Source of the DNA: Malacoraja senta
Lineage: Eukaryota
Reading direction: 5' to 3'
DNA: 64,000 nucleotides
Assembly (NCBI GenBank): GCA_038087875.1
Contig: CM075989.1
Span: 23,066,001-23,130,000 of the forward strand
Below the pieces are notes generated by a model. That model had not been told where the DNA came from, made no database searches, and saw only the letters and a program-made list of their open reading frames with translations. A program made the translations under genes and the position numbers. Position 1 is the first letter of the stretch. Each line of letters begins with the position of its first letter. Of this stretch, positions 4,634 through 64,000 are shown one piece after another.

Positions 4634-4827
4634 GGACTTCCGGTGGCGTCATGTTAGACTAACAGACGTGCACCCAGCTCCTCTCCCGAAAAACTTCACG
4701 ATTTATCGTGTAAAACGGGTCCGAAAATCGGGATTGTTTTTAAAAACCTTACCGGAGCTTCTGGTTACCGCGCTGATGACGTCATCGTTAAACGCGATGT
4801 TTTAAACGGTGGTTTGAAGCCCTTTAA
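4634..4827 (+). promoter_or_regulatory. L1 5'UTR / putative internal promoter
   Basis: Begins GGACTTCCGGT (ETS-type CCGGAAGT on the minus strand); palindromic CRE GATGACGTCATC at 4775-4786; CpG-rich relative to flanks. Confidence 0.6.
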
Positions 4828-5898: not shown

Positions 5899-6703
5899 AA
5901 GGGAGCTTTGGCAGATCCGAATAATTCTCAGCTATGTTTTGTCTGGGGATAGTTACATTGTTATCTCCGGAATGTTGAAGCAAGGACATTTTCTGTTCAA
6001 AACGTGTAAACAACTTTATAACGGGATATGAATTAGAAAATAATTGCTTATTGATTAAAATGTTATAACCAATTGTAAGAACTTATCCTATTAACAACTT
6101 TAAAAGTTATGCAGGTTAGATTAGAATACTAACAAAAAAAACAAAAAAATAATGAACTAACATACTAATATGAATTTTTAATAAATTGTAACCTTGTCTA
6201 TAAGCGGGAGGAGGGGATGAGAAACGAGCTCCTGGCTTATGTCCAGGAGCACGTCTCGTTAACCCCTTCAACCAACAGCTGATTCTTATTGAAATCAAAA
6301 ATATTGGTTTAATAATTAAACTCTGATATATATATATGTTATAAGGAAATATCAGGGTAAAATTGTATTATATATATGAATGTGAGGCCTCGTTTTAATA
6401 TTTTAATATGTTATGATTAACTAAGAGAGCGGAGCGAGTTGAGCAACAACGCAATGGAAGTCAAAATAAGGTTTTTTCCCACCTACAGGTGGGTCACTTG
6501 CTACAGTGCCGACTATAGACACTGTAGCCTCACTTTTTTAGTTTTTTTTTTATTACATAAAATCACTTGTTTGTGTTTTGTGTTTAGTGATAAGAATAAT
6601 ATGGACATACCAACAAAAGTTAATAATTCAAAAACTCCCCCAATACCTAAAGACCTGGGATATGGACGCACCACAAGATTCAAAGGTACTATAATTATTC
6701 AAA

Positions 6704-9700
6704 ATGCATGACACCACACAAAAGAACCTAGGAGGAGTCTCATTTTGTAGTTGGAATATAAGAGGTATTAATGAACCTATCAAAAGGGGTAAGATATTAG
6801 CTCAGCTAAAAATGTATAATTCTGACATTACCTTCCTACAAGAAACACACCTAAAACCTCAGGACCAAGTTAGGCTGAGGGCGAAATGGATAGGTCAAAC
6901 ATACCACTCTTCATTCACTTCAAAATCTAGAGGCACGTCAATTATCATAAGAAAAGGTATACCATTTAAAGCAAAGAATATTATAACAGATATAGAAGGG
7001 AGATACCTAATAGTTAATGGAGAAATCCATGACACTCCACTTACTTTGGTAAATATATATGCCCCTAACTTTGATAACCCCCACTTTTTCAATAAAATCT
7101 TCAATATAATTGCAGAGTCAAACTATCAAAATGTTATAATAGGCGGAGACTTTAACTGTGTTTTAGACCCGTACTTAGATAAATCAAGTCAAAAACAGAG
7201 AGGGAATATGAAATCGAAAACTGGGGAACTCCTCAATACCTACATAAACAACACTAATATAGCAGATGTTTGGAGAATTGTGAATCCAACTGGCAGGGAA
7301 TATTCGTTTTACTCAATGGTACATAAGACATACTCACGTATAGACTACTTTCTGCTGGATACAAAATTAATCCCCCAAACATCTAATGCAATATATCATA
7401 CAAATTCAATTTCAGACCATTCTCCACTAACTTTCTTTTTAAAACTGGAAGGATTGTCTAAGAATAATTCATTCTGGAGATTTAACTCTCAAATTTTAAA
7501 AGATCCACAAGCGAGTATATATTTAAAAGAACAAATGGAGGTCTTTTTTCAAACAAATGATACTTCAGATATATCGCCTACTTTACTTTGGGAATCTTTT
7601 AAAGCATACATTAGGGGTATTATAATTTCATATCAAGCTTTTCAAAATAAAAAGAATAAGAATGAACAAAGACAGTTAGAAGAACTTATTAGACAAATGG
7701 ATATAGATAATGCTAAAGATCCATCAATAGATAAACATAATAAAATAATAATTTTAAAATTTAAATTAAATAAATTATTATCTGCCAAACTTATAAGACT
7801 TTTTCAAATTACAAAACAAGAGCACTTTGAATTTGGGGATAAACCGCATAAACTTTTGGCTCGCCAGCTAAAAAAACGAGAAAAGGAACATACTATACCA
7901 AAGATCAAATCAGATAAAGGGGAATTATTAACAACACCGAAGGATATTAATAAAAGATTTGCGCAATTTTACGAGAATTTGTATACATCTAAAACGATAA
8001 TTGATTCCAATAATATCACAAAGTTCTTGGATACCTGTAATCTTCCAAAGTTAGAGCTGAAGGAACAAGAGGAACTGGGTGCACAAATCTCAATTAAGGA
8101 ATTAGAAGATACAATAAACTCACTAAAAAATGGAAAAACACCAGGCCCTGATGGATTTACTAATGAATTTTATAAAAACTTTTATGATAAAATAATACCA
8201 AGATTACAAAAAATGTACCAATACGCTTTTAAAAAACGAATACTACCTGATACATTAGCGGAATCAACGATTACATTAATACCTAAGAAAAATAAGGATT
8301 TAGAAGAACCTGGCTCATATAGAGCTATAGCATTGTTAAACACAGATCAAAAAATATTAGCGAAAACATTAGCCAGAAGATTAAGTAAATACATTAGTAA
8401 ATTAATAAACCCAGATCAGACAGGGTTTATCCCTAAGAGATACTCTTCTAATAATATGAGACGTCTACTCAACATAATGCACTCACACAAATCTGAAGAT
8501 CAAGAATTATCAATTATTTCGCTGGATGCTGAAAAAGCATTTGATCAAGTAGAATGGAATTATATGGATAAAGTATTACAAAAATTTCAACTGGGAGAGA
8601 ATTTTATTTTATGGATTAAGTTACTATATAACAAACCTACAGCTAGAATACTTACTAATAACATATTATCCTCGAAATTTCAACTATCAAGGGGAAATAG
8701 ACAAGGATGCTCATTATCACCACAGCTGTTTGCTCTCATTATTGAACCGCTAGCAGAAAAAATTAGAATACACCCTGATATTCATGGATATAATACTAAA
8801 GACTCATATAATAAAATATCTTTATACGCGGATGATATATTATTGTATATTACAAAACCTCAAATCACTATACCAAATATATTAAATTTAATTGAAGACT
8901 TCGGATCTTTTTCTGGATATAGAATAAATTGGAATAAAAGTGAAATTATGTCAATAAAACCGAAAGATTCAACACATCTTTTAAAATTCCCTTTTAAAAT
9001 AGCTACAGAAAAATTTAAATATTTGGGAATCGAAATTACCAGAGCATATCAAGGTATGCTCAGGGCAAATTTTGACCCCCTACTTAAACTGAATACATTA
9101 ATTAAATTCTGGAAAACGCTTCCGATGTCTTTAATAGGCCGAATAAACGCAATAAAAATGATCTTTTTACCACAAATTTTATACCTATTTCAATCAATTC
9201 CTATATACTTACCTAAGAAGTTTTTTAAAAAACTCGACTCGGATATCACTAATTTTATATGGGACTATAAATCACATAGAATACAAAAAACCCATCTGAA
9301 TAAATCTAAAGTATTGGGGGGTCTAGCACTACCCAATTTTATGTATTATTATTGGTCAGTAAATATTAAAAACATGATTCAACTGATGGATAACTCCGCC
9401 CAGCAAGTAGACTGGATTGTAATGGAGAAAGAGGATTGCTCCTCTAGAAACATTGGAGCGATCCTCCTCTCTCCAATGAAATTGAATAACATAAACTATA
9501 ATAAGAACCCAATTATTCATAGTACAATCCGTATTTGGAAACAAATAAAACAAAATTTAAAATTAAGAAACTTATCACTTTTATTACCTATAGTCAATAA
9601 CCCTTCGTTTAGTCCTTCTATTATAGATAAAGCTTATACACAATGGGATAGACTAGGAATTAAAACGCTTGGTGACTTGTATGAAACTGGAAAATTACTT

Positions 9701-10492
9701 TCATTTCAACAATTACAAATAAAATATAAACTCGGAAATAATCAATATTTTAAATACTTTCAAATATGCGACTATTTGAAAAAATATATAAAAGATCATC
9801 ATAATAACCCAGCAGATGTACTGGACGAGGCAATGCAGATAAAAGCGGAATCAGCAAACTTAATATCATATTTGTACAATATTATCTTAAATGTACAAAT
9901 ACCATCTACGGAGGGTATCAGAAGAGACTGGGAACAAGAGTTAGCTATTAAAATTTCAAAGGAAAGTTGGAATGAATACTTATTAAAAGTACATAAATGC
10001 TCGATTAATGTAAGACACACTTTAATACAATTTAAAATTTTACATAGATTATATTATTCGAAAACTAAAATTCATAAAATTTTCCCAAACGTATCATCTA
10101 TTTGTGATAAATGTCAATCCCAAGAAGCAACTATAGCGCACTCATTTGTCTTTTGTACAAAAATTCAAAAATTTTGGAATGAAATTTTTGAAATCTTTAC
10201 AAAGTTATTTAAAACAAGACTGATACCCAAAGCAGAATGGATTATCTTCGGAATAACGGAAGATGATCCAGAACTAAATGTGTTTCAAAAGAAATTAATG
10301 GATTATGGGTTAATAACTGGAAAAAAGCTAATTCTAAAATTTTGGAAGAAGGCTCCAATACCAACTATAAATATGTGGATTTCAAATATGTTTGAAACAC
10401 TACACCTTGAAGAGATAAGACTCCTCCTAGCAGGTAAACCAGATCACTTCCACCTGACGTGGTCTGCATTTATAGAATTATTACAAACATAG
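6704..10492 (+). CDS. L1 ORF2p: APE endonuclease + reverse transcriptase + C-terminal zinc-knuckle, 1262 aa
   Basis: EN motifs SWNIRG, LQETH, IYAPN, GGDFN, SRIDY, SDH; RT motifs PGPDG, SLDAEKAFD, RQGCSLSP, LYADD, KYLGI; CDKC...H....C knuckle. Confidence 0.98.
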   Translation: MHDTTQKNLGGVSFCSWNIRGINEPIKRGKILAQLKMYNSDITFLQETHLKPQDQVRLRAKWIGQTYHSSFTSKSRGTSIIIRKGIPFKAKNIITDIEGRYLIVNGEIHDTPLTLVNIYAPNFDNPHFFNKIFNIIAESNYQNVIIGGDFNCVLDPYLDKSSQKQRGNMKSKTGELLNTYINNTNIADVWRIVNPTGREYSFYSMVHKTYSRIDYFLLDTKLIPQTSNAIYHTNSISDHSPLTFFLKLEGLSKNNSFWRFNSQILKDPQASIYLKEQMEVFFQTNDTSDISPTLLWESFKAYIRGIIISYQAFQNKKNKNEQRQLEELIRQMDIDNAKDPSIDKHNKIIILKFKLNKLLSAKLIRLFQITKQEHFEFGDKPHKLLARQLKKREKEHTIPKIKSDKGELLTTPKDINKRFAQFYENLYTSKTIIDSNNITKFLDTCNLPKLELKEQEELGAQISIKELEDTINSLKNGKTPGPDGFTNEFYKNFYDKIIPRLQKMYQYAFKKRILPDTLAESTITLIPKKNKDLEEPGSYRAIALLNTDQKILAKTLARRLSKYISKLINPDQTGFIPKRYSSNNMRRLLNIMHSHKSEDQELSIISLDAEKAFDQVEWNYMDKVLQKFQLGENFILWIKLLYNKPTARILTNNILSSKFQLSRGNRQGCSLSPQLFALIIEPLAEKIRIHPDIHGYNTKDSYNKISLYADDILLYITKPQITIPNILNLIEDFGSFSGYRINWNKSEIMSIKPKDSTHLLKFPFKIATEKFKYLGIEITRAYQGMLRANFDPLLKLNTLIKFWKTLPMSLIGRINAIKMIFLPQILYLFQSIPIYLPKKFFKKLDSDITNFIWDYKSHRIQKTHLNKSKVLGGLALPNFMYYYWSVNIKNMIQLMDNSAQQVDWIVMEKEDCSSRNIGAILLSPMKLNNINYNKNPIIHSTIRIWKQIKQNLKLRNLSLLLPIVNNPSFSPSIIDKAYTQWDRLGIKTLGDLYETGKLLSFQQLQIKYKLGNNQYFKYFQICDYLKKYIKDHHNNPADVLDEAMQIKAESANLISYLYNIILNVQIPSTEGIRRDWEQELAIKISKESWNEYLLKVHKCSINVRHTLIQFKILHRLYYSKTKIHKIFPNVSSICDKCQSQEATIAHSFVFCTKIQKFWNEIFEIFTKLFKTRLIPKAEWIIFGITEDDPELNVFQKKLMDYGLITGKKLILKFWKKAPIPTINMWISNMFETLHLEEIRLLLAGKPDHFHLTWSAFIELLQT

Positions 10493-10915: not shown

Positions 10916-12310
10916 TTACTTTATTTGGTATAAATCAGCATCTGTTGTTCATTGTTATTAGCTTTTACTCTGTGATTGCAACTCTCCAGGTAAGGAAAGC
11001 ATACTCCAGCAAGAACTTTCAGATCCTTTTAAGAAAATTGCTTCAAGAAGATCCTCTATTACTTTTTAGCACTCTAGAAAATATGGACCTGGTCTACTCA
11101 GCCTTCCTCATTCCGGAATGCAATTTTAGGAATATTCATTATATATACTGTACACACATCCATCATAAATATATTTAAAAAAACATACACAATAGAGACT
11201 GAAGAAGTGTCCCAACCTGACCAGAAAAGTCACCTATCCATGTCCTCTCAAGATGCTGCCTGACTCGCTGAGTTACTCCAGCACTTTGTGTTTTACGTAA
11301 AGTTCCAGCATCTGCAGTTCCTTGTTTGCACAGTAGTCTTGACATGGTCAAAACAAGGCCCTGATTAACTTTGAGAAGTCTTATGCATTCGTACCATCTA
11401 ATCCTTTTTGTAATGAAGGCTAACATAAGATTTGCTTTCCTAACATATGACTGCACCAGTTTTTAACTTTCTGCAATTAACACCAATAATATCTAAAATA
11501 TCATTAAAATGTAAAATGTCATATTTCTTCACATTATCTTCAATATGCTATATTAACCATTCACATTATTAATCAGCCCATATGTTTTTGCAGCCAGAAT
11601 CTCTCTCACAGCTTCTTTTCACATTTTTACATAAATTATCTGCATTCCCGTAATTCTCTTGAATAGGGAATTCCAGGGTTTAGACTCAGCACTAAATAAA
11701 GTCAATGTATTACAGTGGATGATTTGAAGTGGAACCTGCAGGCAGTGGTTACACCATGCATTTGCTGTTCATATCCTACAAGTTGGTATAGAACATGGTT
11801 TTGGATGTGGGTTGTTGGAGAAGCTTTGTTTAGCTGGTAGACACAAAATGCTGGAGTAACTCGTGGGACAGGCAGCATCTCTGGAGAGAAGGAATGGATG
11901 ACGTTTCGGGTTGAGATCCTCCTTCAGACTGATGTCAGGGGAGTGGGCGGGACAGGCAGAATGTAGTTGGAGACAGAAATACTGGCGGGAGAACTGGTAA
12001 GGGGGAGGGAATGGAGAGAGAGTGAAAGCAAGGGCTATTAGTTGGTGCAGTGTAATATTTTTTGTGGATTGAACACACTGTAGACAGGGTTAACTATACA
12101 AGTGCTTAGGTTGGTGAAAGGAGTGCCAATCATGAGAGCTGCTTTGTGTTGGATGGTGTTAAGCTTCTTAAGTATTGTTAGAACTGCACCCGGCAAATGG
12201 AAAGTATGCTATTGAACTCCTAATACTTTGAATATTAAAAAGCTTTTGTATATGAGGAACGTGTATTCAAAGCAAAGTCTTGAAACATTGATAGATTTAT
12301 AGAAATCTAC

Positions 12311-26560: not shown

Positions 26561-26762
26561 GAAGATAGGTATAAAATGCTGGAGTAACTCAGCCGGACAG
26601 GCAGCATCTCTGGAGAAAAGGAGAGACTGACTCAATCTGAAGAAGGGTCTTGACCCTAAACGTCACCCATTCCTGCTCGCCAGAGATGCTACTGTCTCGC
26701 TGAGTTACTCCAACATTTTGCGTCTATCTTCAACGTAAACCAGCATCTAAAGTTCCTTCCTA
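26561..26762. mobile_element. Palindromic PLE-derived insertion in ELL intron 2
   Basis: Inverted arms GAAGATAG...TCTCTGG / CCAGAGATG...CTATCTTC; flanking ATACAAAwAATGG duplication. Confidence 0.75.
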
Positions 26763-29457
26763 TACAAATAATGGCAACTTCCAAACAGGGAATACAACAG
26801 CAATTGTGACTTATTTTATCTTCTGTATTGCAGCCACCAAATAAGGACTCAAACACAAAAACTATGTTTTTTCATGAACTTAAATGAATCATAAATTAAT
26901 TAATAAATATTGAAGATCTAGTTATTATGTCATGACAAGTCCACATATTGTGGTGGTATTAACATAACAATGAACATGGTTGTTCTTATGAAATTAACAG
27001 AAATTTCAGGATTTGCTCAAATTCCAGGATTTACAGAAAATCCTTCGGCCGATATCAGCATTTCCGAGATAAATTATTTGCAAGACATTACATGAAATCA
27101 CATTTAATTTATTTATTAATTTCAGAAAACATTATTATTTCATTGTAAAAATAATAAATAATTATGATTGCCATGCAAAGTGTCTCTGATTCTCTTTGGT
27201 TTGTGTGAAGGAGGACATACTTGCTAGTACTGCAGCTCAGCACTTGACCCTGTTCAGCAACTGCACTTGTTATGAATGTCACTACAAACATATTCGCAGA
27301 CCACAGTTTATTTGAAACTCGGTTCATCTCAGAATTTGGAATAATTAAATAATTACTTAATATTTTGAAATAAAATCCGCTTTTTTAAAAATCATAAAAA
27401 TATGAAAAATAATAAATTTACAAACTAGCCATTCAGTAATTACCCTGAAAATTGTTTGGTAGGCAAGGCCTGAGCGAAATGATTATGCGAAGCTATTTCT
27501 TTAAAAATACAATAATGGTGTGTTATGTGAAAAAGCTGGTCCAGGAACAGTAATTGTCTATGAGCACATTTTATTCCAAATGTCATTATCTCACAAATAT
27601 GTGGGAATTTGAAATATGCTTTACATGGTTCGTGGTATTTAAGCTCCTACTTCTATTGCATACTTTTCAGATATTTAAAACACTAGCAAAAATTCTGCCC
27701 TTTTATGCCATTATGTTCAAATGTACGGGATTTCTGAAACTAAAAGCAAGTTGCACACAATTTGCTGCTCAGTTTTATAGTTGGAAACCTGCCTGTTTAT
27801 TTCATAGTCAGCAACCTATTTTTGGCACACCTGTTAGTTTTAAGAAGTTACTTGATTTGCACAAAATGTTACAGAAAAGTTAATTATGGTAACTAATAGC
27901 AAAGGTATCCCACTGAAAATGTAATAATTGTAAGTTGCTGTCGACTGATCCCTCTATTCAAAAAGAGAATATAACAGAATTATTAAAACAAAAGTGGCAG
28001 CTATTTGGTCCACACAATCTATGCTAGCTCTTGGTAGAGCAATCCCATTACCCCACTCATTCATGATGAGAGTTCCAGAGAGAGATACAGCTATTGAGAA
28101 ATTGAGATATACAATGTGACTTTTCATCTGATGTTAACTTTGTCTACAGATGGCCAGATTTTAATTGGAGCATGTAAACAGATATTTTCTTTATTTTTAA
28201 ACTGAATTCTAGCTGTCCTGGCTGTATTTGTATGGATAGCATTTTGGGGTTAGGATTACTTTACTTCACAGAGGTAACTACATTCTGTATCAAACGGACC
28301 TAGTACTGTATGGTCCTGTGTCTTAGTATTACCTACTGTAAATGGCAATATACACGAGCATAGAAACTGAGTTAGGCGAAACGGTGAGGATGGGAGAGAG
28401 GGGGGGGGGGAACAGGGGTGGAGTGGGAACAACAGAGGAAAGATAGAGAGGCTGCTTGGGGTAGGAGAGAAAGGATGGCCAGAGGTAGAGTAGAAAATTA
28501 AATGAAACATAAGACAAGTGAAAACTGGGATTGTGTCATGAAGCAGTGTATGGAAAGTTGTAATCAATGTCTAACTTTACATTACCTGCACTGACAATGT
28601 TTGATGAAACAACATAGAAAGCACTTTACTCTGCCTTGAGTTTATTCTGTACTGCATTTGAAACAATAATGAAAAAAGGGCTTTATTTTTCAACTAACAT
28701 ATCTTGGAAATATTTAATGAGACGGTACAGAAAACATTTTGTTTATAACATTATTCAGAAGATGTAAAGATGTGACATTAGGTTAGGGAGGGTGAATCTG
28801 TTTTAAATGTCCTAGTGCTGTAACATTACCAAATGGCAACAATGAGCAACATTAATAGTGACAATGCTGTACCTTAAATGGAGAAGTAAACTAAATATTT
28901 CAAACTGACTATTGTTCCACTGAGGGCAGCAGACAGGAACACAGAAGACTACAGGTACTGGATTCTGGAGCAAAAATAGTGATCCGTTGGAAGAACTCAA
29001 CAGGTCAGGCAGAATCTGTGGAAATAAATTGATAGTCGACGATCGGATCGGGACCCTTCATCTGGACCAGTCCACTGATGCTGCCTGACCTGCTGAATTC
29101 CTCCAGCAGCTCTCCCATTTTTGCACATAGGCAGTTTCATATGTCTTCTTACACTCAAGATCTCTTCAAACTTGTAGGTAGGTCTAAGTTTTAAATTAAG
29201 TCACAGAACAAAATATTTATTCCAGCTCCAACCTGAAAATTCAGTTCATCGTGTGCCAATGATTTAACTGTTCAAATTGCAAAACATGCCATGCATGCAG
29301 GGGTGAGAAGTAACATGCATTACATAATACAAGTACAAAGGTTGACAAACATACACAAAGCTAGTGGGTTATGCCAAGCAAGTTAAAATCCAACATGATC
29401 AATGTTTTATGAATGCTTTTTACACACTCTGAGTTTGGATGATCAAAAGTACACTTA

Positions 29458-31787: not shown

Positions 31788-31806
31788 TTCTTGATGACTT
31801 TTAACA

Positions 31807-32011
31807 GAAGATAGACACAAAAAGCTGGAGTAACTAAGCTGGACAGGCAGCATCTCTGGAGAAAAAGGAATGGGTGACGTTTCGGGTCGAGAGACGGGTC
31901 ATACCAAAATGTCACCAATTCCTTCTATCCAGAGATGCTGTCTGCCCAGCTGAGTTACTCCCGCTTTTTGTGCCGATCATCGGTGTAAACCAGCATCTGC
32001 AGTTCCTCCTA
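31807..32011. mobile_element. Palindromic PLE-derived insertion between two truncated L1s
   Basis: Same family, inverted arms, 3' tail AAACCAGCATCTGCAGTTCC. Confidence 0.75.
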
Positions 32012-34420: not shown

Positions 34421-35855
34421 TGAGATTGTTCCAAAATATGTTTAAAAACTTAAAAATAGAGTTTTCAATGTGTCTAGATTGTTAAAGTTTAGTTAACAGG
34501 GTAGCAGGGTTAAGTTCCATGAGTAATTCTGTTGAATAAGAACCTGGGCAAGTGCCAGTAATTCAGGTAGAAAGCTGGTCTGCCAGCTTACAGCTACTTC
34601 CATGACAGTGGCTGTTTCATAAATCTACTCAAATAAGGGCTGCAGGTTTAACAAAACTGCTGTGAAAATGCAGAAGTGCAGAATTTAATATTTCATTTGT
34701 ATTACAATGATCCTGGCCTCTGTGAATTTAAAGCAATTTTGGAGCACAATGCCTTATGATGGGGTAGGATGAGGTTAAATGATCCAAAAAGAGCATAATG
34801 GTTTCATACTTTTCATCTGATAGCTAACAATTTAAAATTGTTGGACTCTTCCTCAGTAACTGCAGATGTTATTGCATTGTGATTTATTTCATTTCCAATG
34901 CACGACTCCAGGTGGTAATCTCACCTGAAGTCACCCCCAAAAATTTAAGTTAGCCTGGGAGGTTGATATCAAGATCAAAGACTATGCCTACCATTGGAGC
35001 CAACAGGAAAGTTGCCAAAAAAGATGGGCCTAAAAATTCTGGTACACCCACATGGTATGGGTGTGTCTAGCCAATGGTTATTTCCGTCATAAATCTGCCA
35101 TCGCAAGCTTCTGTACGGCCCAAAGCTCAAGGCATCATTGGTATTTAAAAGGAATTTCATATTTGCTATTGTTCAAAGTGTGCAAACCAGTCTCAAAGGG
35201 ACCCAATGACCCAGGGTGGGAAGGGAGGGAGTGAGGGCCAATGACCAGAGGTCTAATTGGTGCCATGGAATGTTTTGCTCAACAGATTAAGTGACTGAGG
35301 GAGGGAATGATTGTGAAAGGAATTTTACAAGCCAGATCCAGGGCCAGGAGGGAGTCATTGTGGTGTCAGTTGAGTTTAGGTGTGGATCTGAAAATAAGAT
35401 CGTAACTTGTAAATGAAGGATCAGCAAGGACCTAGTGGTGGAGTGATAGAGAAGAATAAGAGCAGCAAATCTATGCTTATCATCTGGGTCAGGATCCAGA
35501 ATAGGATTCGGGTCAGCAATGCTGAGGAAAAAGGGATAACAATAAAAATTCCAAGAATCACTGAGCAAGTCGGACAGCATCAATTGAGAGAAACAGAGCT
35601 ATCACTTCAGGTTAATGACTTTTCATCAGAAAGAAGTGGCTCATCGGAGACTGGTCCCAGTTCAGCAATGTAGAAACAAAAAACTGCAGATGCTGGTTAA
35701 TACACAAAAGGATACAAAGTGCTGGAGTAAATCAGCAAGTCAGGCAGCATCACCAGATAACATGGATAGGTGACATTTCGGGTCGAGACCCTACTTCAGA
35801 CTTCAGCCTTTTTCTATGGGAAGGTGTCCTCTCCAGTTTAACGGATGTTGACCTT

Positions 35856-36121
35856 AAACGTCACCTACCCATTTTCTCCAGAGATGCTGCCTGACCCGCT
35901 GAGTTACTCCAGCACTCAGTGAAACGTCACCCATCCATGTTCTCCAGAGATGCTGCCTGACCCGCTGAGTTACTCCAGCACTCACTGAAACGTCACCCAT
36001 CCATGTTCTCCAGAGATGCTGCCTGACCCGCTGAGTTACTCCAGCACTCTGTGCAATGTCACCTACCCATGTTCTCCAGAGATGCTGCCTGACCCGCTGA
36101 GTTACTCCAGAACTTTGTGTC
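35856..36121 (+). repeat. Tandem array, 4 x 66 bp, of the PLE terminal-repeat segment
   Basis: Units start at 35856, 35922, 35988 and 36054 ((G)AAACGTCACC...GAGTTACTCCAGCACT); an inverted copy lies at about 35672-35802. Confidence 0.9.
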
Positions 36122-42887: not shown

Positions 42888-44270
42888 CGGGGGGGGGGGG
42901 GGAGGTGAGTGTGGGGGGGGGGGGAGGTGAGTGTGGGGGGGGGGGGAGGTGAGTGTGGGGGGGGGGGGAGAGAGAGTGACGGTGGGGGGTGAGAGTGTGA
43001 GGGGGGGAAGAGTGTGAGGGGGGGGAAGAGCGTGAGGGGGGGAGAGCGTGAAGGGGGGGAGAAGAGTGTGAGGGGGGAGAAGAGTGTGAGGAGGGGAAGA
43101 GTGTGGGGGGGGGAGAAGAGTGTGAGGGGGGGAACAGTGATGGGGGGGGGAGAGTGATGAGGGGGGGGAGAGTGTGAGGGGGGAGAGTGTGAGGGGGGAA
43201 GTGTGTGAGGGGGGGGAAGAGTGTGAGGGGGGGGAAGAGTGTGAGGGGGGGAGAAGAGTGTGAGGGGGGGAACAGTGATGGGGGGGGGGAGAGTGATGAG
43301 GGGGGGGAAGAGTGATGAGGGGGGGAGAAGAGTGTGAGGGGGAGAAGAGTGTGATGAGGGGGGGGGAGAGAGTGTGAGGGGGGAAGAGTGTGAGGGGGGG
43401 GAAGAGTGTGAGGGGGAGTAGAGTGTGAGGGGGGGAAGAGTGATGAGGGGGGAAGAGTGATGAGGGGGAGAGAAGAGTGTGAGGGGGAGAAGAGTGTGAG
43501 GGGGAGAAGAGTGTGATGAGGGGGGGGGAGAGAGTGTGAGGGGGGAAGAGTGTGAGGGGGGGGAAGAGTGTGAGGGGGAGTAGAGTGTGAGGGGGGGAAG
43601 AGTGATGGGGGGGTAAGAGTGATGAGGGGGGGAGAGTGAGAGGGGGAGAAGAGTGTGAGGGGGGGAAGAGTGTGAGGGGGGAAGAGTGTGTGGGGGGGGT
43701 GTGAGGGGGGAAGAGTGTGAGGGGGGGAAGAGTGTGTGGGGGGGGGTGTGAGGGGGGAAGAGTGTGAGGGGGGAAGAGTGCGAGGGGGGAAGAGCGTGAG
43801 GGGGGAAGAGCGTGAGGGGGTGGAAGAGTGATGAGGGGGGAAGAGTGATGAGGGGGGGAAGAGTGATGAGGGGGGGAAGAGTGATGAGGGGGAGAAGAGT
43901 GATGAGGGGGAGAAGAGTGTGTGGGGGGGGTGTGAGGGGGGAAGAGTGTGTGGGGGGGGTGTGAGGGGGGAAGAGTGTGAGGGGGGGAGAAGAGTGTGAG
44001 GGGGGAAGAGTGTGTGGGGGGGGTGTGAGGGGGGAAGAGTGCGAGGGGGGAAGAGCGTGAGGGGGGGAAGAGCGTGAGGGGGTGGAAGAGTGATGAGTTG
44101 GAGAAGAGTGATGAGGGGGAGAAGAGTGATGAGGGGGTGGAAGAGTGATGAGGGGGTGGAAGAGTGATGAGGGGGGAAGAGTGATGAGGGGGAGAAGAGT
44201 GATGAGGGGGGGAAGAGTGATGAGGGGGAGAAGAGTGATGAGGGGGGGGGGGGAAGAGTGAGGGGAAGAG
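42888..44270. repeat. G-rich minisatellite, about 17-bp unit GAAGAGTG(TG/ATG)AGGGGGG
   Basis: About 1.4 kb directly visible; begins about 50 bp inside ELL intron 1. Confidence 0.97.
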
Positions 44271-44785: not shown

Positions 44786-44926
44786 TCAATGCACGGGGAG
44801 GGCAGTCGCTCAATGCACCGGGGAGGGCAGTCGCTCAATGCACCGGGGAGGGCAGTCGCTCAATGCACCGGGGAGGGCAGTCGCTCAATGCACCGGGGAG
44901 GGCAGTCGCTCAATGCACCGGGGGAG
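44786..44926. repeat. 25-bp minisatellite TCGCTCAATGCACCGGGGAGGGCAG (about 5.5 copies)
   Basis: TCGCT recurs at 44806, 44831, 44856, 44881 and 44906. Confidence 0.93.
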
Positions 44927-45248
44927 GACAGTGCAATGCAAACTGTCACTTAATGCAACAGGAACTTAATGCAACTGTGTCGGGAAGGGCAGTGCAATCT
45001 GGCGAGGGCGGTGCAACCTATCACTGAATGCACCGGGGAGGGAAATACAAACTGTCACTTAGTGCACCCGGGAACTTAATGCAACTGTGTCGGGAAGGGG
45101 CAATGAAACTGTCACAATGCACCGGGGAGGGCAATACAACTGTATCGGGAAGGGCAGTGCAACCCGTCAGTCAATGCACGGGAGAGCTGTCACCCAATGC
45201 ACCCGGACGGCAGTGCAAACCATCACTCAACGCAGCGGGCGGGGAATG

Positions 45249-48533: not shown

Positions 48534-48792
48534 TGAAGATAGACACAAAATGCTGGAGTAACTCAGTGGGTCAGGCAGCATCTCTGAAGAGAAGGAATAG
48601 GTGACGTTTCGGGTCGGGACCCTTCTTCAGACTGAGAGTCAGAGGAGCCGGGAAACCAGAGGTATTAAAATACACAGGGTACCTGTGGTTTCCTCTATTC
48701 TTTATCTCCAGGGATGCCTCCTAACCCACTGAGTTACTCCAGCATTTTGTGTCTATCTTCAGTGTAAACCAGCATCTGCAGTTCCTTCCTAA
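48534..48792. mobile_element. Palindromic PLE-derived insertion
   Basis: Inverted arms TGAAGATAGACACAAAATGCTGGAGTAACTCAG / CTGAGTTACTCCAGCATTTTGTGTCTATCTTCA. Confidence 0.8.
48603..48630 (-). ncRNA. Hammerhead ribozyme core motif
   Basis: Reverse complement reads CTGAAGAAGGGTCCCGACCCGAAACGTC. Confidence 0.6.
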
Positions 48793-48974
48793 ACATACAT
48801 CTGTAAAGGTTGTATTTATATCGCGTTCTTTGGCTGTGTTTTAGTTTTAAAGATAAAGCATGGAAACCGCCCCTGCTGTCCGCCAAGTCCACAGACCATC
48901 ATAAGGAGAACATGCGAACTCCACATAGACAGTGTTATGGTTAACACTGTCTATGTGTTATAGACAGACGATGG

Positions 48975-49272: not shown

Positions 49273-50830
49273 ATTCCCATTCTGCGTGAATTTTGGTCTA
49301 TGCTTCGTGGAACAACCGATGACAAGAACTATGTAAATGCAAATAGTTTTTTGATGCTGTCAAGGAAATTTTAACGTCACAATTTTGAACAGTCTTCAGT
49401 CAGTATTAACATGAAATGCATGAAAAACATAAAAGCATGCAAAAAATAGTATTTTCTTCGGCAAAATGAATGAAGTGTGGCAATGGTTTCACATGGACCA
49501 GATTTGTTTACATACTGCTCCTCTCAATGACACTGACTCAGTTAGCTCCTGCTGAGCTGTTTGTATTTAGCTTCACAGTTGTCCAATCAGTAGGACAATT
49601 ACTATTTTAGCATTTTAATTGATCCTGAAGGAAAATGCTATAGAGACAGGTATCTGAAATTTAAAAAACAGAGAATACTGCATATTCTCAGCAGGACAAA
49701 CAGCATCAAGAGAGAGAACTAGAGAATGAACATTTCAGGTGACAAATGTTTTACCCAAACTGCAGAAAGGTTAGACGCAAAGTGCTGGATTAACTCAGCG
49801 GATCAGGCAGCATCTCTGGAGAAAAGGAATAGGTGACGTTTTGGGTCGAGACCATTCTTCAGACTGAGAGTCGGGGAAAGGGAAATGAGAGATATAGATG
49901 GTAATATGGAGAGATATTGAACAAATGAATGAAAGATATGAAAATGTAACAATGATCAAGGAAAAGTGGATCATCATTACTTTTTTTGCATATCTTTCAT
50001 TCACTTGTTTTATATCTCTCTATATCACCGTCTACAGTATATCTCTCATTTCTGCCTGCCAAGGATAGACATAGTCAACCACAGCAGAGATGTAACAACA
50101 GATGAAACAGTCCCCCATCCAAGCAGGACAACGTCAAAGCTGCACCATCATCTCCCGCAGATGGGCAGATGCCAGTTTCAGTTCCAGTTCAGTGGAGGTA
50201 CAGTGAAAAGCTTTTGTTGCATGCTATCCAGTCAGCGGAAAGACAACACATGATTACAATCGAGCCATTTTCAGTGTACAGATACATGATAAGGGAATAA
50301 CATTTAGTGCAAGGTAAAGCCAGTTAAGTCCGATCAAAGGTACAGCGAGGGTCACAACTATGCATATTAACTGAAAAGCCGCCTTCCTTGCTATGATGTT
50401 GCATGATTCAATTAAAACGTGCAATAATTTCCAAAGCAAACAGTTCTATAAACAGTGACTCTCACTGACTATTGCAATATTCAATGAATTAACCCTCTTG
50501 AAATGGCCTTTTATGTTCAGAATCAATTTGCTCAATCTCATGAAAAGCAGCTGTGCACATTTCATACATCAGGGCGAAAATTTACAACCAAATAAACTAG
50601 CTGGGCTGATATTCTAAATAAAAGTAAGAATGTTTGCAGCTGGTAAATTCTCTGCACAAATGACATCTGATTTTTGCAGTGTTTAATCATTGATTATTCG
50701 GGTACAGGTATTGCTTGGATGGATCCCCTATGTTAGCATTGGGCCTGGCTCATAGAGTCCATAAGGTCATTCAGCACAGAAACAGCCCCTTCATCCCACC
50801 ATGTCCATGCTGACCATGAACACCTATCTA

Positions 50831-51008
50831 AGGTAGACAAAAATGCTGGAGAAACTCAGCGGGTGAGGCAGCATCTATGGAGCGAAGGAATAGGTGACGT
50901 TTCAGGTCCATAGATTCCTTCGCTCCATAGATGCTGCCTCACCTGCTGAGTTTCTCCAGCATTTTTGTCTACCTTCGATTTTTCCAGCATCTGCAGTTCT
51001 TTCTTAAA
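50831..51008. mobile_element. Palindromic PLE-derived short insertion
   Basis: About 60-bp inverted arms; perfect TSD CATGAACACCTATCTA at 50815-50830 and 51009-51024. Confidence 0.85.
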
Positions 51009-51237
51009 CATGAACACCTATCTATACTTCTCCCACTCACCACTGGTCCATTGCTAGCTATCTCTTGGCGCTTTGAATATTAAACTTATACATAAGTTTA
51101 AGGTGAAGGGGATACGATTTAATAGGAACCTGAGGGGTAATTTCTTCACACAAAGGGTGGTGGGTGTATGGAACGAGCTGCCTCAGGAGAGCGATATATA
51201 TAGATATTTATGTATCTCCCTCTCCCCTGACATCAGT

Positions 51238-51265
51238 CTGAAGAAGGGTCTTGACCCGAAACGTC
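51238..51265 (+). ncRNA. Hammerhead ribozyme core motif
   Basis: CTGAAGAAGGGTCTTGACCCGAAACGTC. Confidence 0.6.
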
Positions 51266-52080
51266 ACCCATTCCTTCTTTACAGAGATGCTGCCTGTCCG
51301 GCTGAGTTACTCCAGCATTTTGTGACTATCTTCGGCTTAAACCAGCATCTGCAGTTCCTTCCTACATAATTGAGACAGGGACTATCCCAACTTTTAAGAA
51401 ACAATTAGACAGGTTCATGGATAGATCAGGTTTGGAGGGATATGGGCTAAACGCTGGTGGGTGGGACAAATGTTGCTGGGGCATGTTGGCCGGTGTGGGC
51501 AAGTTGGGCCGAAGGGCCTGTTTCCACACTGTATCTCTCTATGACTCTATAAAAAATCTAGAGAAAATATTGCAGACTTGTGGACCTCACAATAACTCAC
51601 TTTACCTTGAAGTTGTATTGTTTAGCACAGTTAGACATTATGCAACTTTAAAGAATTTAAAAGCTTATATAGCAGTCATATTTGAAATGAGTCATGACGG
51701 AGTAATTCAGACAGCATAGTTGTTCATTTACCATCTCATTTAAAGTTGTAGCCAACAGAAGAATCTACTGATAAAATATTTTAATGAGGGTGTGACCTCG
51801 TTAGACCAGATTGATTATGATACCTATTAACAAAAATAAACTCTGGAGTGAGGATTGATGAGATAAAACTGAAGATGTTGCAGGCATCTGTGGAGAGAGG
51901 AGATGATCAAAACTGGAAAACGAGGAAACCAACATGCTTTAAGTTGTAGAGATGGGGACCAGTACCGACCAGCGTTCACCCCGTACACTAGCACTAGCCT
52001 GCACACCAGGGACAATTTACAACCTTTCCCAGGATCATTCACAATTTTTTTTACTGAAGCCAATTAACCTACAAACCTGT

Positions 52081-61008: not shown

Positions 61009-61634
61009 CGGAATAGAGTCCGAGGCTTTTTAGTGAACCAGTTGGTTGTTGTACGACAAAATGACAGATTGAAATATGCGTATCTTGGCAACTAGCAAGA
61101 TTATTGACAACAGCCTGAACAGACTTGGACTATCAGTCTCTGAATTGTAAATGAAATTCCTAAACTGTCAAGATATGCGGGCAGCAATAGGCAATAGTTG
61201 ATTAGTGTCCGGTTTTGCCATTAACTTGAGAGCTGAGTATATTTGTTTGTAACTGTTTGCAAATTCTAACAGAGTAGATTTAGTTTAGCTTAGAGATGGA
61301 ACAGTCTCTTCGGCCCACTGAGTCCGCACCCACCTATACACGTTCCATCCTATAGAGCCATGGAGTTGTACAGCGGGCCCACAATAACCAACATACCCGA
61401 TCTACTCTAGTCTCACGCCTTCATTTGGCCCATATCCCTCTAAACCTGTCCTATCCATGTACCTGCCATGTCCCTGTCTAAATGCTTTTTAAATGTGATA
61501 GTGCCTGCTAATATCTGTCCATCCTATACACTGGGGACAATTTACAGAGGCCAATTAACCTACAAACCAGCACGTCTTTGGAGTGTGGGAGGAAACTGGA
61601 GCACCAGGAGAAAACCCACGCAGGTCATGGGGAG

Positions 61635-61871
61635 GTAGACACAAAATGCTGGAGTAACTCAGCGGGTGAAGCAGCATCATTGGAGAGAAGGAATGGGCGA
61701 CGTTTCGGGACGAGACCCTCCTTTAGTCTTCAGACTGCTTCAGTCTGAAGAAGGGTCTCAACCCGAAACGTCGCCCATTCCTTCTCTCCAGAGATGCTTC
61801 CTCACCCGCTGAGTTACTCCAGCATTTTGTGTCTACCTTCCACTTAAACCAGCATCCGCAGTTCTTTCTTA
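61635..61871. mobile_element. Palindromic PLE-derived insertion nested in a tRNA-derived SINE
   Basis: Inverted arms; host SINE duplicated at 61617-61634 and 61872-61889, with two CpG-type transitions. Confidence 0.8.
61745..61772 (+). ncRNA. Hammerhead ribozyme core motif
   Basis: CTGAAGAAGGGTCTCAACCCGAAACGTC (one stem II mismatch). Confidence 0.55.
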
Positions 61872-62481
61872 CACACAGGTCACGGGGAGAACGTACAAAC
61901 TCCATACAAACAGCACCCATAGTCAGGATTGAACCTGTGTCTCTGGCGCTGTGAGGCGACAACTCTACCGCTGCGCCATCGTGATGTGTTGTTTACACAG
62001 TTAATCAAGATGTGCAAATGTGTTGTGGTGATGGACTAATTGGTTAATTGGCCTCTGTGATTTGCCCCCAGTGTGTAGGATGTGAAAGGAGAATTACACA
62101 GAGAACTAGTGTACGGGTGATCAATGGCTGACATGGACCCGGTGGGCTGAGGGACCTTCTTCCACGCTGTATCTCTAAATAAAAGTAGCCAGAATGTTAC
62201 AGGGGTTGAAAAATATAATGGAATATCCTGACTGCGATCGCTGTCTGATCCACTGCATATTTAGTTACTCTCATTGATATATTCACATGGAAGGTATGCC
62301 ATTGGAAAGATAACAACTCAAACATGTGATGCATATCCTGACCGATGGAATTAGGACATATATAGTCCAAGAAATAGAACACCATCCCATTTTCCTGGCT
62401 TCCTCAGACTCGTGCAATAAGGAATTTTCCAGGTGTTTTTTTTTAGCCTGATTTAGAAATCTTACAAGATATAAATCGGAG

Positions 62482-62687
62482 ATAGATACAAAAAGCTGAA
62501 GTAACTCAGCTGGTCAGACAGCAACTCTGGAGAAAAGGAATAGGTGACGTTTCAGGTCTGAAGAAGGGTCTCGACCCGAAACGTCACCTATTCCTTCTCT
62601 CCAGCAATGCTGTCTGACCCGCCGAGTTACTCCAGCTTTTTATGTCTAACTTTGGTTTTAACCAGCATCTGCAATTCCTTCCTGCAC
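62482..62687. mobile_element. Palindromic PLE-derived insertion
   Basis: Inverted arms; TSD ATATAAATC(G/A)GAG at 62469-62481 and 62688-62700. Confidence 0.8.
62554..62589 (+). ncRNA. Minimal type-I hammerhead ribozyme motif in the PLE-derived repeat
   Basis: AGGT-CTGAAGA-A-GGGTC(TC)GACCC-GAA-ACGT-C-ACCT: core, stem II, palindromic stem III, GUC site and 4-bp stem I. Activity untested. Confidence 0.65.
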
Positions 62688-62994
62688 ATATAAATCAGAG
62701 TGTTGGCTCAGCGATGATCCACTTGTCTCTGAGTTAGATGGTTGTTTCTTCAAATTCGTGGAAAGGTCTTGAGTCTAAAATCGATGCCAATACACTGGAG
62801 GAATAGCGTGGCAGCACTGCACAGCCTAAAGCTGCCATATATTTGACAGGACATTAAACTAGACATCTATCTAATCTCACAGTTTCTGCACAAAGATCCC
62901 ATGGAAACCATGGGCTGAGAGCAGTCTTCCTTCCCCAGTAGAGCTGATTATGCTCAGGACAGAAAATAGCTGAGAATAAAAAAAAGACATTTTA

Positions 62995-63205
62995 ATTTAG
63001 TCTAGAGATATATGTGGAAACAGGCCCTTTGGCCCACCAAGTCCACGCCGACCAGCGATCACCCATACACTAGTTCTGCCCTACACACTAGGGACAATTT
63101 TCAGAAGAGTGGAGGGAGGAAACCGGAGCACCCGGAGGAAACCCACGCTGCCACAGGGGGAACGTACAAACTTCGTGCAGACAGCACCCGTAGTCAGGAT
63201 TCGTA
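62995..63205 (-). mobile_element. tRNA-derived SINE fragment
   Basis: Same family. Confidence 0.7.
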
Positions 63206-63769
63206 CCCATTCCTACCAATGCTTTAGCTGTGAACGCGGTTTAAATATACAAATCAACTAAAAGCTAAACTGCAGAGCCAACAGTAAATTCTTTGGATGA
63301 ATTTCTCTCATTAGTAACAGTGGTGTGGAATAAGTAGAGGCAGAACATTAAAAATGCACAGGGTTCTTGAGATCTTTTTATTGATCTATTTTTATTATGA
63401 TAATCGCTGCTAGTTTTAAATCATATTGGAATGACTTGAGATTGTACAAGGTTCTTTGTAAAATAAATAGCTATCTATTGTTCTGAGAAAAGGCCTGGAA
63501 CAAATCCCGATTGAAAATAGCTCTCAGTTTCAGTGTGTTTTACGTGGTTTCCCAGCTCCTTGGGGTGAAGGGTGTTATACCAGATTCAATGCTAAATAGT
63601 TGTGGTCTCTGTGAGCCTGAGTCCAAGCCGTAGGGAGGTGGTGTTGCTCTATCCTCCTATGTGTCAAGATCTGTTTCTGTCAACACTGTCCCTGGAATGG
63701 CCTCACAGTGACAGTACCTTTACCCTCCAGAACAGACCCCCTCCTCCATCCTGACCCTGTATCACCTCT

Positions 63770-64000
63770 GTAGGAAGGAACCGCAGATGCCGGTTAACAA
63801 CGAAGATAGACACAAAATGCTGGAGGAACTCAGCGGGACAGGCAGCATCTCTGGAGAGAAGGAATGGGTGACGTTTTAGGTCGAGACCCTTCCTCAGATT
63901 AGTCAGGGGTCTGACTAGTCTGACGAGTCTGAAGAAGGGTCTCGACCCGAAACGTCACCCATTCCTTCTCTCCAGAGATGCTGCCTGTCCTGCTGAGCTA
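63770..64000. mobile_element. Palindromic PLE-derived insertion (runs off the window)
   Basis: Minus and plus copies of the repeat back to back. Confidence 0.75.
63929..63956 (+). ncRNA. Hammerhead ribozyme core motif
   Basis: CTGAAGAAGGGTCTCGACCCGAAACGTC. Confidence 0.6.

What the first reader, a model, noticed from the sequence alone, without database searches (positions are those of the whole stretch)
62554..62589. The dominant short repeat of this region carries a minimal hammerhead ribozyme
Seen: about 25 copies of the AGATGCTGCCTG...GAGTTACTCCAGC repeat, many preceded by CTGAAGA-A-GGGTC-nn-GACCC-GAAACGTC. The best cores are at 48603-48630(-), 51238-51265, 61745-61772, 62558-62585 and 63929-63956; in most of these the loop varies while stem II is kept. 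Established: CUGANGA...GAAA...UH is the hammerhead core, Penelope-like elements carry minimal type-I hammerheads with short palindromic stem III thought to act as dimers, and an extra A after A9 is tolerated in the CChMVd hammerhead. Inference: this genome holds a very high-copy family of ribozyme-bearing non-autonomous retroelements (retrozyme-like). Stem III here is a loop-less ACGU palindrome that could form only in a dimer. Stem I is weak in most copies.
Basis: partly seen in the sequence, partly recalled or inferred. Interest (0 to 1): 0.82.

Follow-up and report, generated by a model that had tools for sequence, protein, structure and literature searches.

The report
Penelope retroelement tails with minimal hammerheads
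The repeat is the tail end of a hugely amplified Penelope-like jumping gene that carries the small hammerhead ribozyme motif already described for such elements; the motif is predicted to cut only when two copies pair, and this copy is likely an inert relic, so the catch is right but the kind is known.

Summary
The 28-base motif CTGAAGA-A-GGGTC-nn-GACCC-GAAACGTC occurs 13 times in the window at 3 or fewer mismatches (0 expected). It occurs 22,936 times exactly in the 1.94-Gb genome (0 for the reversed pattern).

It is not a free-standing ribozyme family. In 11 of 12 loci found with the endonuclease protein, the motif lies 107-129 bases after the end of a GIY-YIG endonuclease reading frame. One such copy has reverse-transcriptase remnants upstream. 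This is the 3' end of a Penelope-like element (PLE).

The copies show the PLE signatures:
- an optional ~35-base 3' extension;
- partial tandems;
- head-to-head inverted copies (63 pairs against 2 tail-to-tail).

The motif meets the published features of PLE "minimal hammerheads": both catalytic boxes, the extra base after A9, G10.1-C11.1 and the ACGU palindrome. Helix I has only 2 pairs.

About 277 relics lie in 600 kb of arbitrary sample (4.75% of bases). Most are short units starting within about 10 bases of the motif. Copies decay neutrally; the core is no better kept than the tail. No Rfam hammerhead model matches, and cleavage was not testable.

Verdict: a new member of a known kind. The retrozyme reading is only partly supported.

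The parts
62558..62585 (+). Minimal hammerhead motif of the finding. Box CTGAAGA 62558-62564; extra A 62565; stem II/loop GGGTCTCGACCC 62566-62577; GAAA 62578-62581; C15.2-G16.2 62582-62583; U16.1 62584; C17 62585. The predicted cut lies between 62585 and 62586.
   Evidence: Sequence read; exact pattern match; passes the strict min-HHR descriptor.
62556..62688 (+). Right arm: a short unit of the Penelope-like tail (profile positions 102-234) with the long 3' extension.
   Evidence: nhmmer E 1.2e-33.
62470..62559 (-). Left arm: an inverted, 5'-truncated copy (profile positions 118-207) that starts inside the 3' half of stem II. With the right arm it forms a near-perfect long hairpin.
   Evidence: nhmmer E 4.6e-19. 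Folds of 62490-62650: -103 kcal/mol (z -15.9) on + and -120.4 kcal/mol (z -19.1) on -.
11834..12028 (-). Longest copy in the window: it also holds the pyrimidine-rich stretch that follows the endonuclease ORF in full elements (profile positions 3-198).
   Evidence: nhmmer E 1.4e-47. Its upstream part matches the post-ORF sequence of L022-L033.
51209..51367 (+). Single copy (not in an inverted pair) with intact boxes (core 51238-51265) and the long 3' extension.
   Evidence: Fold z -1.74, and the hammerhead fold is not the minimum-energy fold.
48535..48795 (.). Head-to-head pair: 48535-48653(-) with an exact core at 48603-48630, and 48688-48795(+).
61632..61875 (.). Head-to-head pair with a core on each strand: 61699-61726(-) with 3 mismatches, 61745-61772(+) with 1 mismatch.
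63768..63999 (.). Head-to-head pair with a core on each strand: 63870-63897(-) and 63929-63956(+, exact). The right arm runs off the window.
35842..36121 (+). Tandem array of 66-base units of the same tail. The units lack the CTGAAGA box and stem II.
   Evidence: Tandem Repeats Finder: 35856-36114, period 66, 3.9 copies, 94% matches.

Best explanation
The motif is the minimal hammerhead motif carried in the 3' terminal region of a massively amplified Penelope-like retroelement (reverse transcriptase plus GIY-YIG endonuclease). It is predicted to cleave after GUC only when two copies pair through their ACGU palindrome. The copy at 62558-62585 is likely an inert relic.

Shown here:
- The motif and the ~100-130-base tail behind it follow the endonuclease ORF of the element.
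- Copies carry the structural signatures of Penelope-like insertion.
- Most copies are short units whose homology starts within about 10 bases upstream of the motif.
- Genomic copies decay neutrally.

Inferred:
- In an RNA with two motifs (partial tandems, the pseudo-LTR arrangement), the two cores would form a double hammerhead with a shared 4-bp helix III and would trim the precursor RNA.
- With a helix I of only 2 pairs, any activity would be low and may need helpers, as published for other metazoan elements.
- The element's reverse transcriptase would start at one of two sites in the tail, giving the short and long 3' ends.
- Template switching at the RNA's 5' end would give the head-to-head pairs.
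For: Link to the element:
- In L021 a 203-aa frame with GIY-YIG (PF01541, E 4.5e-7) ends 110 bases before the motif, and the same tail follows.
- 11 of 12 loci found with that protein carry the motif 107-129 bases after the ORF end.
- In L097 two frameshifted fragments upstream give sub-threshold RVT_1 hits (E 0.026 and 0.079), and one carries a YIDD motif.
- Two L097 ORF fragments (one RT, one linker-plus-endonuclease) align colinearly to an intact 759-aa RT + GIY-YIG ORF of another family in this genome (E 2e-14 and 4e-33; Pfam of that ORF).

Penelope signatures in 664 kb (window plus 60 arbitrary 10-kb loci, 314 copies):
- 3' ends are bimodal: 126 at profile positions 191-205 and 126 at 221-235. 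This matches the optional 30-40-bp 'tail' and two RT start sites described in PMC8557442 and PMC11167929 (passages read).
- 63 head-to-head pairs against 2 tail-to-tail.
- Partial tandems in L006 and L007.

Motif:
- 26 strict descriptor matches, all with the extra base, against 0 in reversed sequence.
- The catalytic boxes are identical in the three subfamily consensuses. The consensus letters differ only in loop II and its closing pairs (U-A to U-G, C-G to U-G), at position 17 (C or U) and at 1.1.
- The features match those listed in PMC4209133 (main text parts 1-2 of 4 read).
Against: - No Rfam hammerhead model matches, at gathering score over the window or at E up to 10 over 61400-64000.
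- Helix I has only 2 pairs in 21 of 28 box-intact copies.
- Stem II has 4-5 pairs, shorter than the 6-8 reported for most Penelope hammerheads.
- Compensatory double changes in stem II are barely above expectation: 7 vs 2.7, 4 vs 1.1, 3 vs 1.5, 1 vs 1.0, 3 vs 6.7.
- Within subfamilies the core's non-CpG divergence (0.09-0.13) is no lower than the tail's (0.06-0.11).
- Only 6 of 314 copies start in profile positions 131-140, which hold the predicted cut site, so cleaved RNA is not the usual template.
- The hammerhead fold is not the minimum-energy fold of a single copy, and in this inverted pair it competes with a -103 kcal/mol hairpin.
- In the one Penelope element studied in vitro, hammerhead mutants did not affect insertion and no RNA-seq reads ended at the site (PMC11167929, passages read).
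- Cleavage could not be tested here.
Confidence: 0.85

Rival explanations
1. The motif descends from Penelope hammerheads but is kept in this family for a non-catalytic job. One candidate is part of an internal core promoter or transcription start; another is a recognition structure for the element's reverse transcriptase. Self-cleavage would play no part in its spread.
For: - Homology of single copies ends 0-9 bases upstream of GAAGAAGGG in 86 of 112 cases, with 36 of 112 at 3-5 bases.
- TCAGTCT is conserved there in all subfamilies, well beyond the 2 bases helix I needs. It fits the initiator consensus YYANWYY (recalled, not from a call).
- Helix I has 2 pairs.
- Hammerhead mutants do not affect insertion of the Anolis element in vitro (PMC11167929, passages read).
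- Clades without canonical hammerheads proliferate as well (PMC8557442, passages read).
Against: - All catalytic positions and the extra base are kept in every subfamily consensus.
- The same architecture recurs in Penelope elements of distant animals, some of which cleave in vitro (PMC4209133, PMC11167929).
- No RNA 5'-end data could be obtained.
- The 5' ends are spread over about 10 bases, not at one base.
Confidence: 0.2
2. The short repeat is a retrozyme: a non-autonomous element that lives as tandem repeats, is cut twice by its hammerheads, circularises and is copied back from circular RNA.
For: - A discrete short unit dominates: 120 of 314 copies start at profile positions 96-105.
- Vertebrate non-LTR retrozymes are reported to derive from Penelope pLTRs (bioRxiv 10.64898/2026.07.22.740005; abstract and part 1 of 2 of the Results read).
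- A few tandems exist (window 35856-36114, L007).
Against: - Only 16 same-strand neighbour pairs within 80 bases among 314 copies, against 63 head-to-head pairs.
- The window's tandem array lacks box 1 and stem II.
- Units begin upstream of the predicted cut instead of being permuted around it.
- The same tail is attached to RT/endonuclease ORFs.
Confidence: 0.07
3. The palindromic look at 62490-62650 marks a DNA transposon (MITE or foldback element), and the hammerhead resemblance is chance.
For: The near-perfect hairpin of about 150 bases. Weak miRNA-model hits, which merely reflect hairpins.
Against: - The arms are two copies of a retroelement tail with 3' ends outward and variable 5' truncation points.
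- 188 of 314 copies are not in such pairs.
- The tail follows an RT/endonuclease ORF.
- My own estimate from the descriptor's fixed positions (no call) puts the chance of a full min-HHR match in one ~130-base family at about 1e-6.
Confidence: 0.02

Closest known systems
Minimal hammerheads (min-HHR) in the pseudo-LTRs of metazoan Penelope-like elements (Cervera and De la Pena 2014, PMC4209133)
   Same: - CUGANGA and GAAA boxes; one unpaired base between A9 and G10.1; G10.1-C11.1.
- No helix III loop, with a palindromic 15.2-16.2 (ACGU).
- Position in the terminal repeat region of an RT + GIY-YIG element.
- Thousands of dispersed, mostly solitary copies.
- Pairs of motifs close together on opposite strands.
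   Different: - Helix II has 4-5 pairs instead of the usual 6-8.
- Helix I has 2 pairs, as in the D. virilis variant, not 4-5.
- Copy number is far higher than the 4,000-9,000 quoted for coelacanth and Xenopus.
- One sequence superfamily dominates, rather than many covarying families.
Poseidon element of Anolis carolinensis, PAc (Frangieh et al. 2024, PMC11167929)
   Same: A hammerhead in the pLTR. Two 3' end classes about 35 bases apart, matching two internal RT start sites and the optional 'tail'.
   Different: In PAc the ORF starts inside the hammerhead. Here the motif is seen 107-129 bases after the ORF end, and the upstream pLTR of a full-length copy was not recovered. The linker Cys motif (C-x4-C-x2-C before GIY-YIG) points to the Neptune/Nematis side rather than Poseidon (inference from PMC8557442).
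Non-LTR retrozymes of animals (Cervera and de la Pena 2020, PMC7229834, search listing only; Li, Clavereau and Pollet 2026, bioRxiv 10.64898/2026.07.22.740005)
   Same: Short non-coding units with type-I hammerheads, derived from Penelope pLTRs.
   Different: Retrozymes are tandem arrays that give circular RNAs. Here the copies are dispersed monomers and head-to-head pairs.
CChMVd hammerhead with an extra A after A9 (De la Pena and Flores 2001, as cited in PMC4209133)
   Same: An extra unpaired base between A9 and stem II.
   Different: A viroid ribozyme with full helices and loop-loop contacts; no relation by descent is claimed.

Membership tests
Minimal hammerhead of Penelope-like elements | Catalytic boxes CUGANGA and GAAA in type-I order | tested here: met
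   The boxes are identical in the three subfamily consensuses.
Minimal hammerhead of Penelope-like elements | One unpaired nucleotide between A9 and G10.1 | tested here: met
   A in 94% of copies at that column. All 26 strict matches have it.
Minimal hammerhead of Penelope-like elements | G10.1-C11.1 pair closing a helix II of 4 or more pairs | tested here: met
   GGGU/ACCC plus a possible C-G. This is shorter than the 6-8 pairs typical of the family.
Minimal hammerhead of Penelope-like elements | No helix III loop; palindromic 15.2-16.2; U16.1; H17 | tested here: met
   GAAA-CG-U-C in subfamilies A and C, GAAA-CG-U-U in D.
Minimal hammerhead of Penelope-like elements | Helix I of 4-5 pairs | tested here: not met
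   2 pairs in 21 of 28 box-intact copies. A 2-pair helix I is described for the D. virilis variant.
Minimal hammerhead of Penelope-like elements | Compensatory covariation in the helices among families | tested here: inconclusive
   Only one-sided changes between subfamilies. Double changes are barely above expectation.
Minimal hammerhead of Penelope-like elements | Self-cleavage at H17, as a dimer | not testable with these tools
   No RNA runs with raw reads. This needs a bench assay.
Penelope-like element (endonuclease-positive) | One ORF with reverse transcriptase followed by a C-terminal GIY-YIG endonuclease | tested here: met
   GIY-YIG E 4.5e-7. Frameshifted RT pieces (RVT_1 E 0.026 and 0.079, below Pfam's cut-off) plus a YIDD motif. 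Colinear alignments to an intact 759-aa RT + GIY-YIG ORF. No intact full-length copy of this family was recovered.
Penelope-like element (endonuclease-positive) | 5' truncation, partial tandems (pLTR), adjacent inverted 5'-truncated copy, optional 30-40-bp tail | tested here: met
   Features as listed in PMC8557442.
Non-LTR retrozyme | Head-to-tail tandem arrays of hammerhead-bearing units | tested here: not met
   16 same-strand neighbour pairs among 314 copies. The window's array lacks the box and stem II.
Non-LTR retrozyme | Circular RNA of unit length | not testable with these tools
   No RNA holder on record.
Rfam hammerhead families | Match to a curated hammerhead covariance model | tested here: not met
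   No hit at gathering score or at E up to 10 on 61400-64000. A motif without a helix III hairpin is not expected to fit those models (inference).

The most novel reading that the evidence does not exclude
The roughly 0.9 million short units are not random truncations. They are a self-contained 'start-to-start' module: transcription begins at a conserved initiator-like TCAGTCT that abuts the hammerhead box. The element's reverse transcriptase starts internally about 95 or 130 bases downstream. Any solo tail could then re-seed itself, with the hammerhead box doubling as core-promoter sequence.
Probability: 0.15. Interest if true: 0.6.

Novelty: new member of a known kind. Interest (0 to 1): 0.3.

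Why it matters
It adds one more, very large, case to the rule that Penelope-like elements carry minimal hammerheads. A 600-kb sample is 4.75% tail relics, and the genome holds about 23,000 letter-perfect cores.

Three points go beyond a plain confirmation:
- Most copies are a discrete short unit that starts at the motif.
- 40% of copies sit in head-to-head pairs that would fold into long perfect hairpins if transcribed.
- Almost no copies start at the predicted cut site, which argues that cleaved RNA is not the usual template.

These bear on the open question of what the hammerhead does for these elements. They do not settle it.

Tried and rejected
- Rfam scans found no hammerhead. Only weak miRNA-like hits appeared, and these reflect the inverted pairs.
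- RNA evidence: no RNA holder is listed for the stretch.
- I laid the Logan contigs of four coded runs (kind only guessed as RNA) on 62300-62900. Only 62468-62698 is covered, by thousands of repeat-bearing contigs from four coded organisms. Many of them diverge just before 62556. Contigs cannot show RNA ends, so this says nothing on cleavage or expression.
- Same-strand motif pairs 3-4.5 kb apart on contig 1 (L001-L005) were tried as full elements. The family is so dense that such pairs are chance. The one ORF of 150 aa or more that was scanned (L001, 584 aa) gave RVT_1 only.
- The window's own large ORF (6695-10492) is an L1-like LINE, not the carrier.
- The best GIY-YIG hits in the genome belong to another Penelope family, with a different box.
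- An intron reading of the pyrimidine-rich post-ORF stretch was dropped. The GT after the ORF is part of alternating AAG-TAA / AAA-TAG stop codons.
- Literature search for the sequence strings returned nothing.
- The Atlas look-up gave only generic animal transposon clusters.

Full report
**Observation.** The stretch 62558-62585 reads CTGAAGA-A-GGGTC-TC-GACCC-GAAA-CG-T-C.
- The pattern with free loop letters has 13 matches in the window at 3 or fewer mismatches, against none in 100 shuffles. Four are exact (48603-, 51238+, 62558+, 63929+). 61745+ has one mismatch.
- In the window's own genome (1.94 Gb; the window is contig 13, 23,066,001-23,130,000) the exact pattern occurs 11,423 + 11,513 times. 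The reversed control occurs 0 times.

**What carries it.**
- The window has no Penelope ORF; its one large ORF is an L1-like LINE.
- A GIY-YIG search of the genome led to L021. There a 203-aa frame with GIY-YIG (E 4.5e-7) stops 110 bases before the motif. The motif is followed by exactly the window's repeat, down to ...CAGCATCTGCAGTTCTTTCTTACACA.
- That protein has 107,298 first-look candidates in the genome. All 150 that were scored match at E below 1e-77 and 69-100% identity; the 100% row is the query's own locus and the other 149 are 69-80%.
- In 11 of the 12 loci returned, the motif lies 107-129 bases after the ORF end. The twelfth, L027, has none.
- Copies with longer frames are 5'-truncated 1.0-1.9 kb from the tail.
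- L097 keeps frameshifted reverse-transcriptase pieces with a YIDD motif. Their RVT_1 hits are E 0.026 and 0.079, below Pfam's cut-off.
- Two L097 ORF fragments (one RT, one linker-plus-endonuclease) align colinearly to an intact 759-aa RT + GIY-YIG ORF of a second family in this genome: E 2e-14 over residues 355-445 and 4e-33 over 436-758.
- The linker has C-x4-C-x2-C before GIY-YIG. According to PMC8557442 (passages read) this marks the Neptune and Nematis clades; that placement is an inference.

**Penelope signatures.** I built a 234-position profile: post-ORF stretch 1-103, motif 104-131, tail 132-234. I ran it on the window plus 60 ten-kb loci placed at round coordinates without regard to content.
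- It finds 314 copies. Of these, 277 lie in the 600 kb of arbitrary loci and cover 4.75% of those bases. That extrapolates to roughly 0.9 million relics.
- 3' ends fall into two equal classes: 126 at positions 191-205 and 126 at 221-235. This matches the optional 30-40-bp 'tail' of Penelope-like insertions and the two internal RT start sites shown for the Anolis element (PMC8557442 and PMC11167929, passages read).
- 63 head-to-head pairs hold 126 of the 314 copies, against 2 tail-to-tail pairs. This is the 'inverted 5'-truncated copy at the 5' end' of the literature.
- L006 is a partial tandem: the motif plus 7 bases is joined to the 3' end of the endonuclease ORF. L007 has a 38-base tandem duplication of the motif.

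**A discrete short unit.**
- Profile starts are not spread as random truncation would give. 120 of 314 start at positions 96-105 and only 59 start before 91.
- In copies outside inverted pairs, homology ends 0-9 bases upstream of GAAGAAGGG in 86 of 112 cases, with 36 of 112 at 3-5 bases. Unrelated DNA follows.
- The same boundary appears in contigs of four other coded organisms (table 7).
- Only 6 of 314 copies start in positions 131-140, which hold the predicted cut site.
- So most copies are units of about 95 or about 130 bases that begin at the motif, and cleaved RNA is not their usual template.
- TCAGTCT is conserved at this boundary in every subfamily. It fits the initiator consensus as I recall it. 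This is a lead, not a result.

**Is it a hammerhead?** Against the features that Cervera and De la Pena give for Penelope minimal hammerheads (PMC4209133, parts 1-2 of 4 of the main text read):
- Met: both boxes, the extra base between A9 and G10.1, G10.1-C11.1, and the palindromic 15.2-16.2 with U16.1-H17.
- A strict descriptor finds 26 matches in 664 kb, all with the extra base, and none in reversed sequence.
- Three subfamilies appear among 180 full-span copies (n = 72, 26, 17). Their boxes are identical. Their consensus letters differ only where a hammerhead may differ: loop II and its closing pairs (U-A to U-G, C-G to U-G), C17 to U17, and position 1.1.
- Against: helix I has 2 pairs in 21 of 28 box-intact copies.
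- Against: stem II is short, and compensatory doubles are barely above expectation.
- Against: no Rfam hammerhead model matches.
- Against: a single copy does not fold into the hammerhead by minimum energy. AGAAGG pairs instead with CCUUCU downstream (z -1.74).
- Per-column agreement of non-CpG core positions (0.85-0.95) equals that of the tail.
- Within subfamilies the core diverges as much as the tail: 0.09-0.13 against 0.06-0.11. CpG sites decay two to three times faster than other sites in subfamilies A and C, but not in the youngest, D (0.058 against 0.069). Genomic copies are therefore dead and drifting. The test says little about the source elements.

**The copy of the finding.** 62556-62688(+) is a short unit with the long tail. 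62470-62559(-) is an inverted copy truncated inside stem II. Together they fold into a near-perfect hairpin: -103 kcal/mol (z -15.9) on the + strand and -120.4 kcal/mol (z -19.1) on the - strand. This hairpin buries GAAACGUC. Its four-pair 'helix I' is supplied by the neighbour arm. I take this copy to be inert.

**Mechanism, with status.**
- Shown: the motif belongs to the tail of an RT + GIY-YIG element that spread by Penelope-type insertion.
- Inferred from the literature: two motifs in one precursor RNA pair through ACGU into a double hammerhead and cut after GUC, weakly and perhaps with helpers.
- Published work leaves the role open. Hammerhead mutants did not change insertion of the Anolis element in vitro (PMC11167929), and clades without canonical hammerheads spread as well (PMC8557442).
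- My data add that copies almost never start at the cut site.

**Comparison and novelty.**
- This is the known class of minimal hammerheads of Penelope-like elements, in a further genome and at very high copy number. Notes of this scan on other genomes reached the same verdict. They are not independent evidence.
- The sequence strings are absent from the searchable literature. I did not open the supplements of PMC4209133, and those of the 2026 preprint are closed, so the family may already be listed there.
- It is not a retrozyme as defined, because tandems are rare.

Noticed in passing
window 35856-36114: Array of 3.9 units of 66 bases made from the same tail (GAAACGTC... to ...CTCCAGCACTCAGT). 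The units lack the CTGAAGA box and stem II. A similar junction occurs in L042 near 6142.
   Followed up: partly
G000 contig 14 at 18.24-18.41 Mb and many small contigs (L018-L020): A second Penelope-like family with intact 759-aa RT + GIY-YIG ORFs, standing in tandem arrays. About 350 bases before the ORF it carries CTGACGA-A-GCTA-CAGTGA-TAGC-GAAAC. That is the same box layout and extra A, with a wholly different stem II, but no clear helix III or GUH site. No Rfam hit.
   Followed up: partly
window 62470-62688, 61632-61875, 63768-63999, 48535-48795, 50826-51010, 31800-32011, 26561-26766: Head-to-head pairs would give long, near-perfect RNA hairpins if transcribed. 40% of all copies in the 664-kb sample sit in such pairs. 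They draw weak hits to unrelated miRNA models.
   Followed up: partly
profile positions 98-104, e.g. window 51232-51238: TCAGTCT directly before the hammerhead box is conserved in all subfamilies, beyond what a 2-pair helix I needs. It coincides with the 5' ends of the short units and is initiator-like by recall.
   Followed up: partly
window 4828-5898 and 6695-10492 (+): An L1-like LINE with an open 1265-aa frame (endonuclease, RT, zf-RVT). It is preceded by a 356-aa frame with a weak L1 ORF1-like hit.
   Followed up: partly
window 42891-44265: A G-rich minisatellite (18/36-base units such as GGGGGGGAAGAGTGTGA, about 1.3 kb). It keeps all three frames of the minus strand open.
   Followed up: partly
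window 44786-44932: A tandem repeat of 25-base units, 5.9 copies, 97% matches.
   Followed up: no
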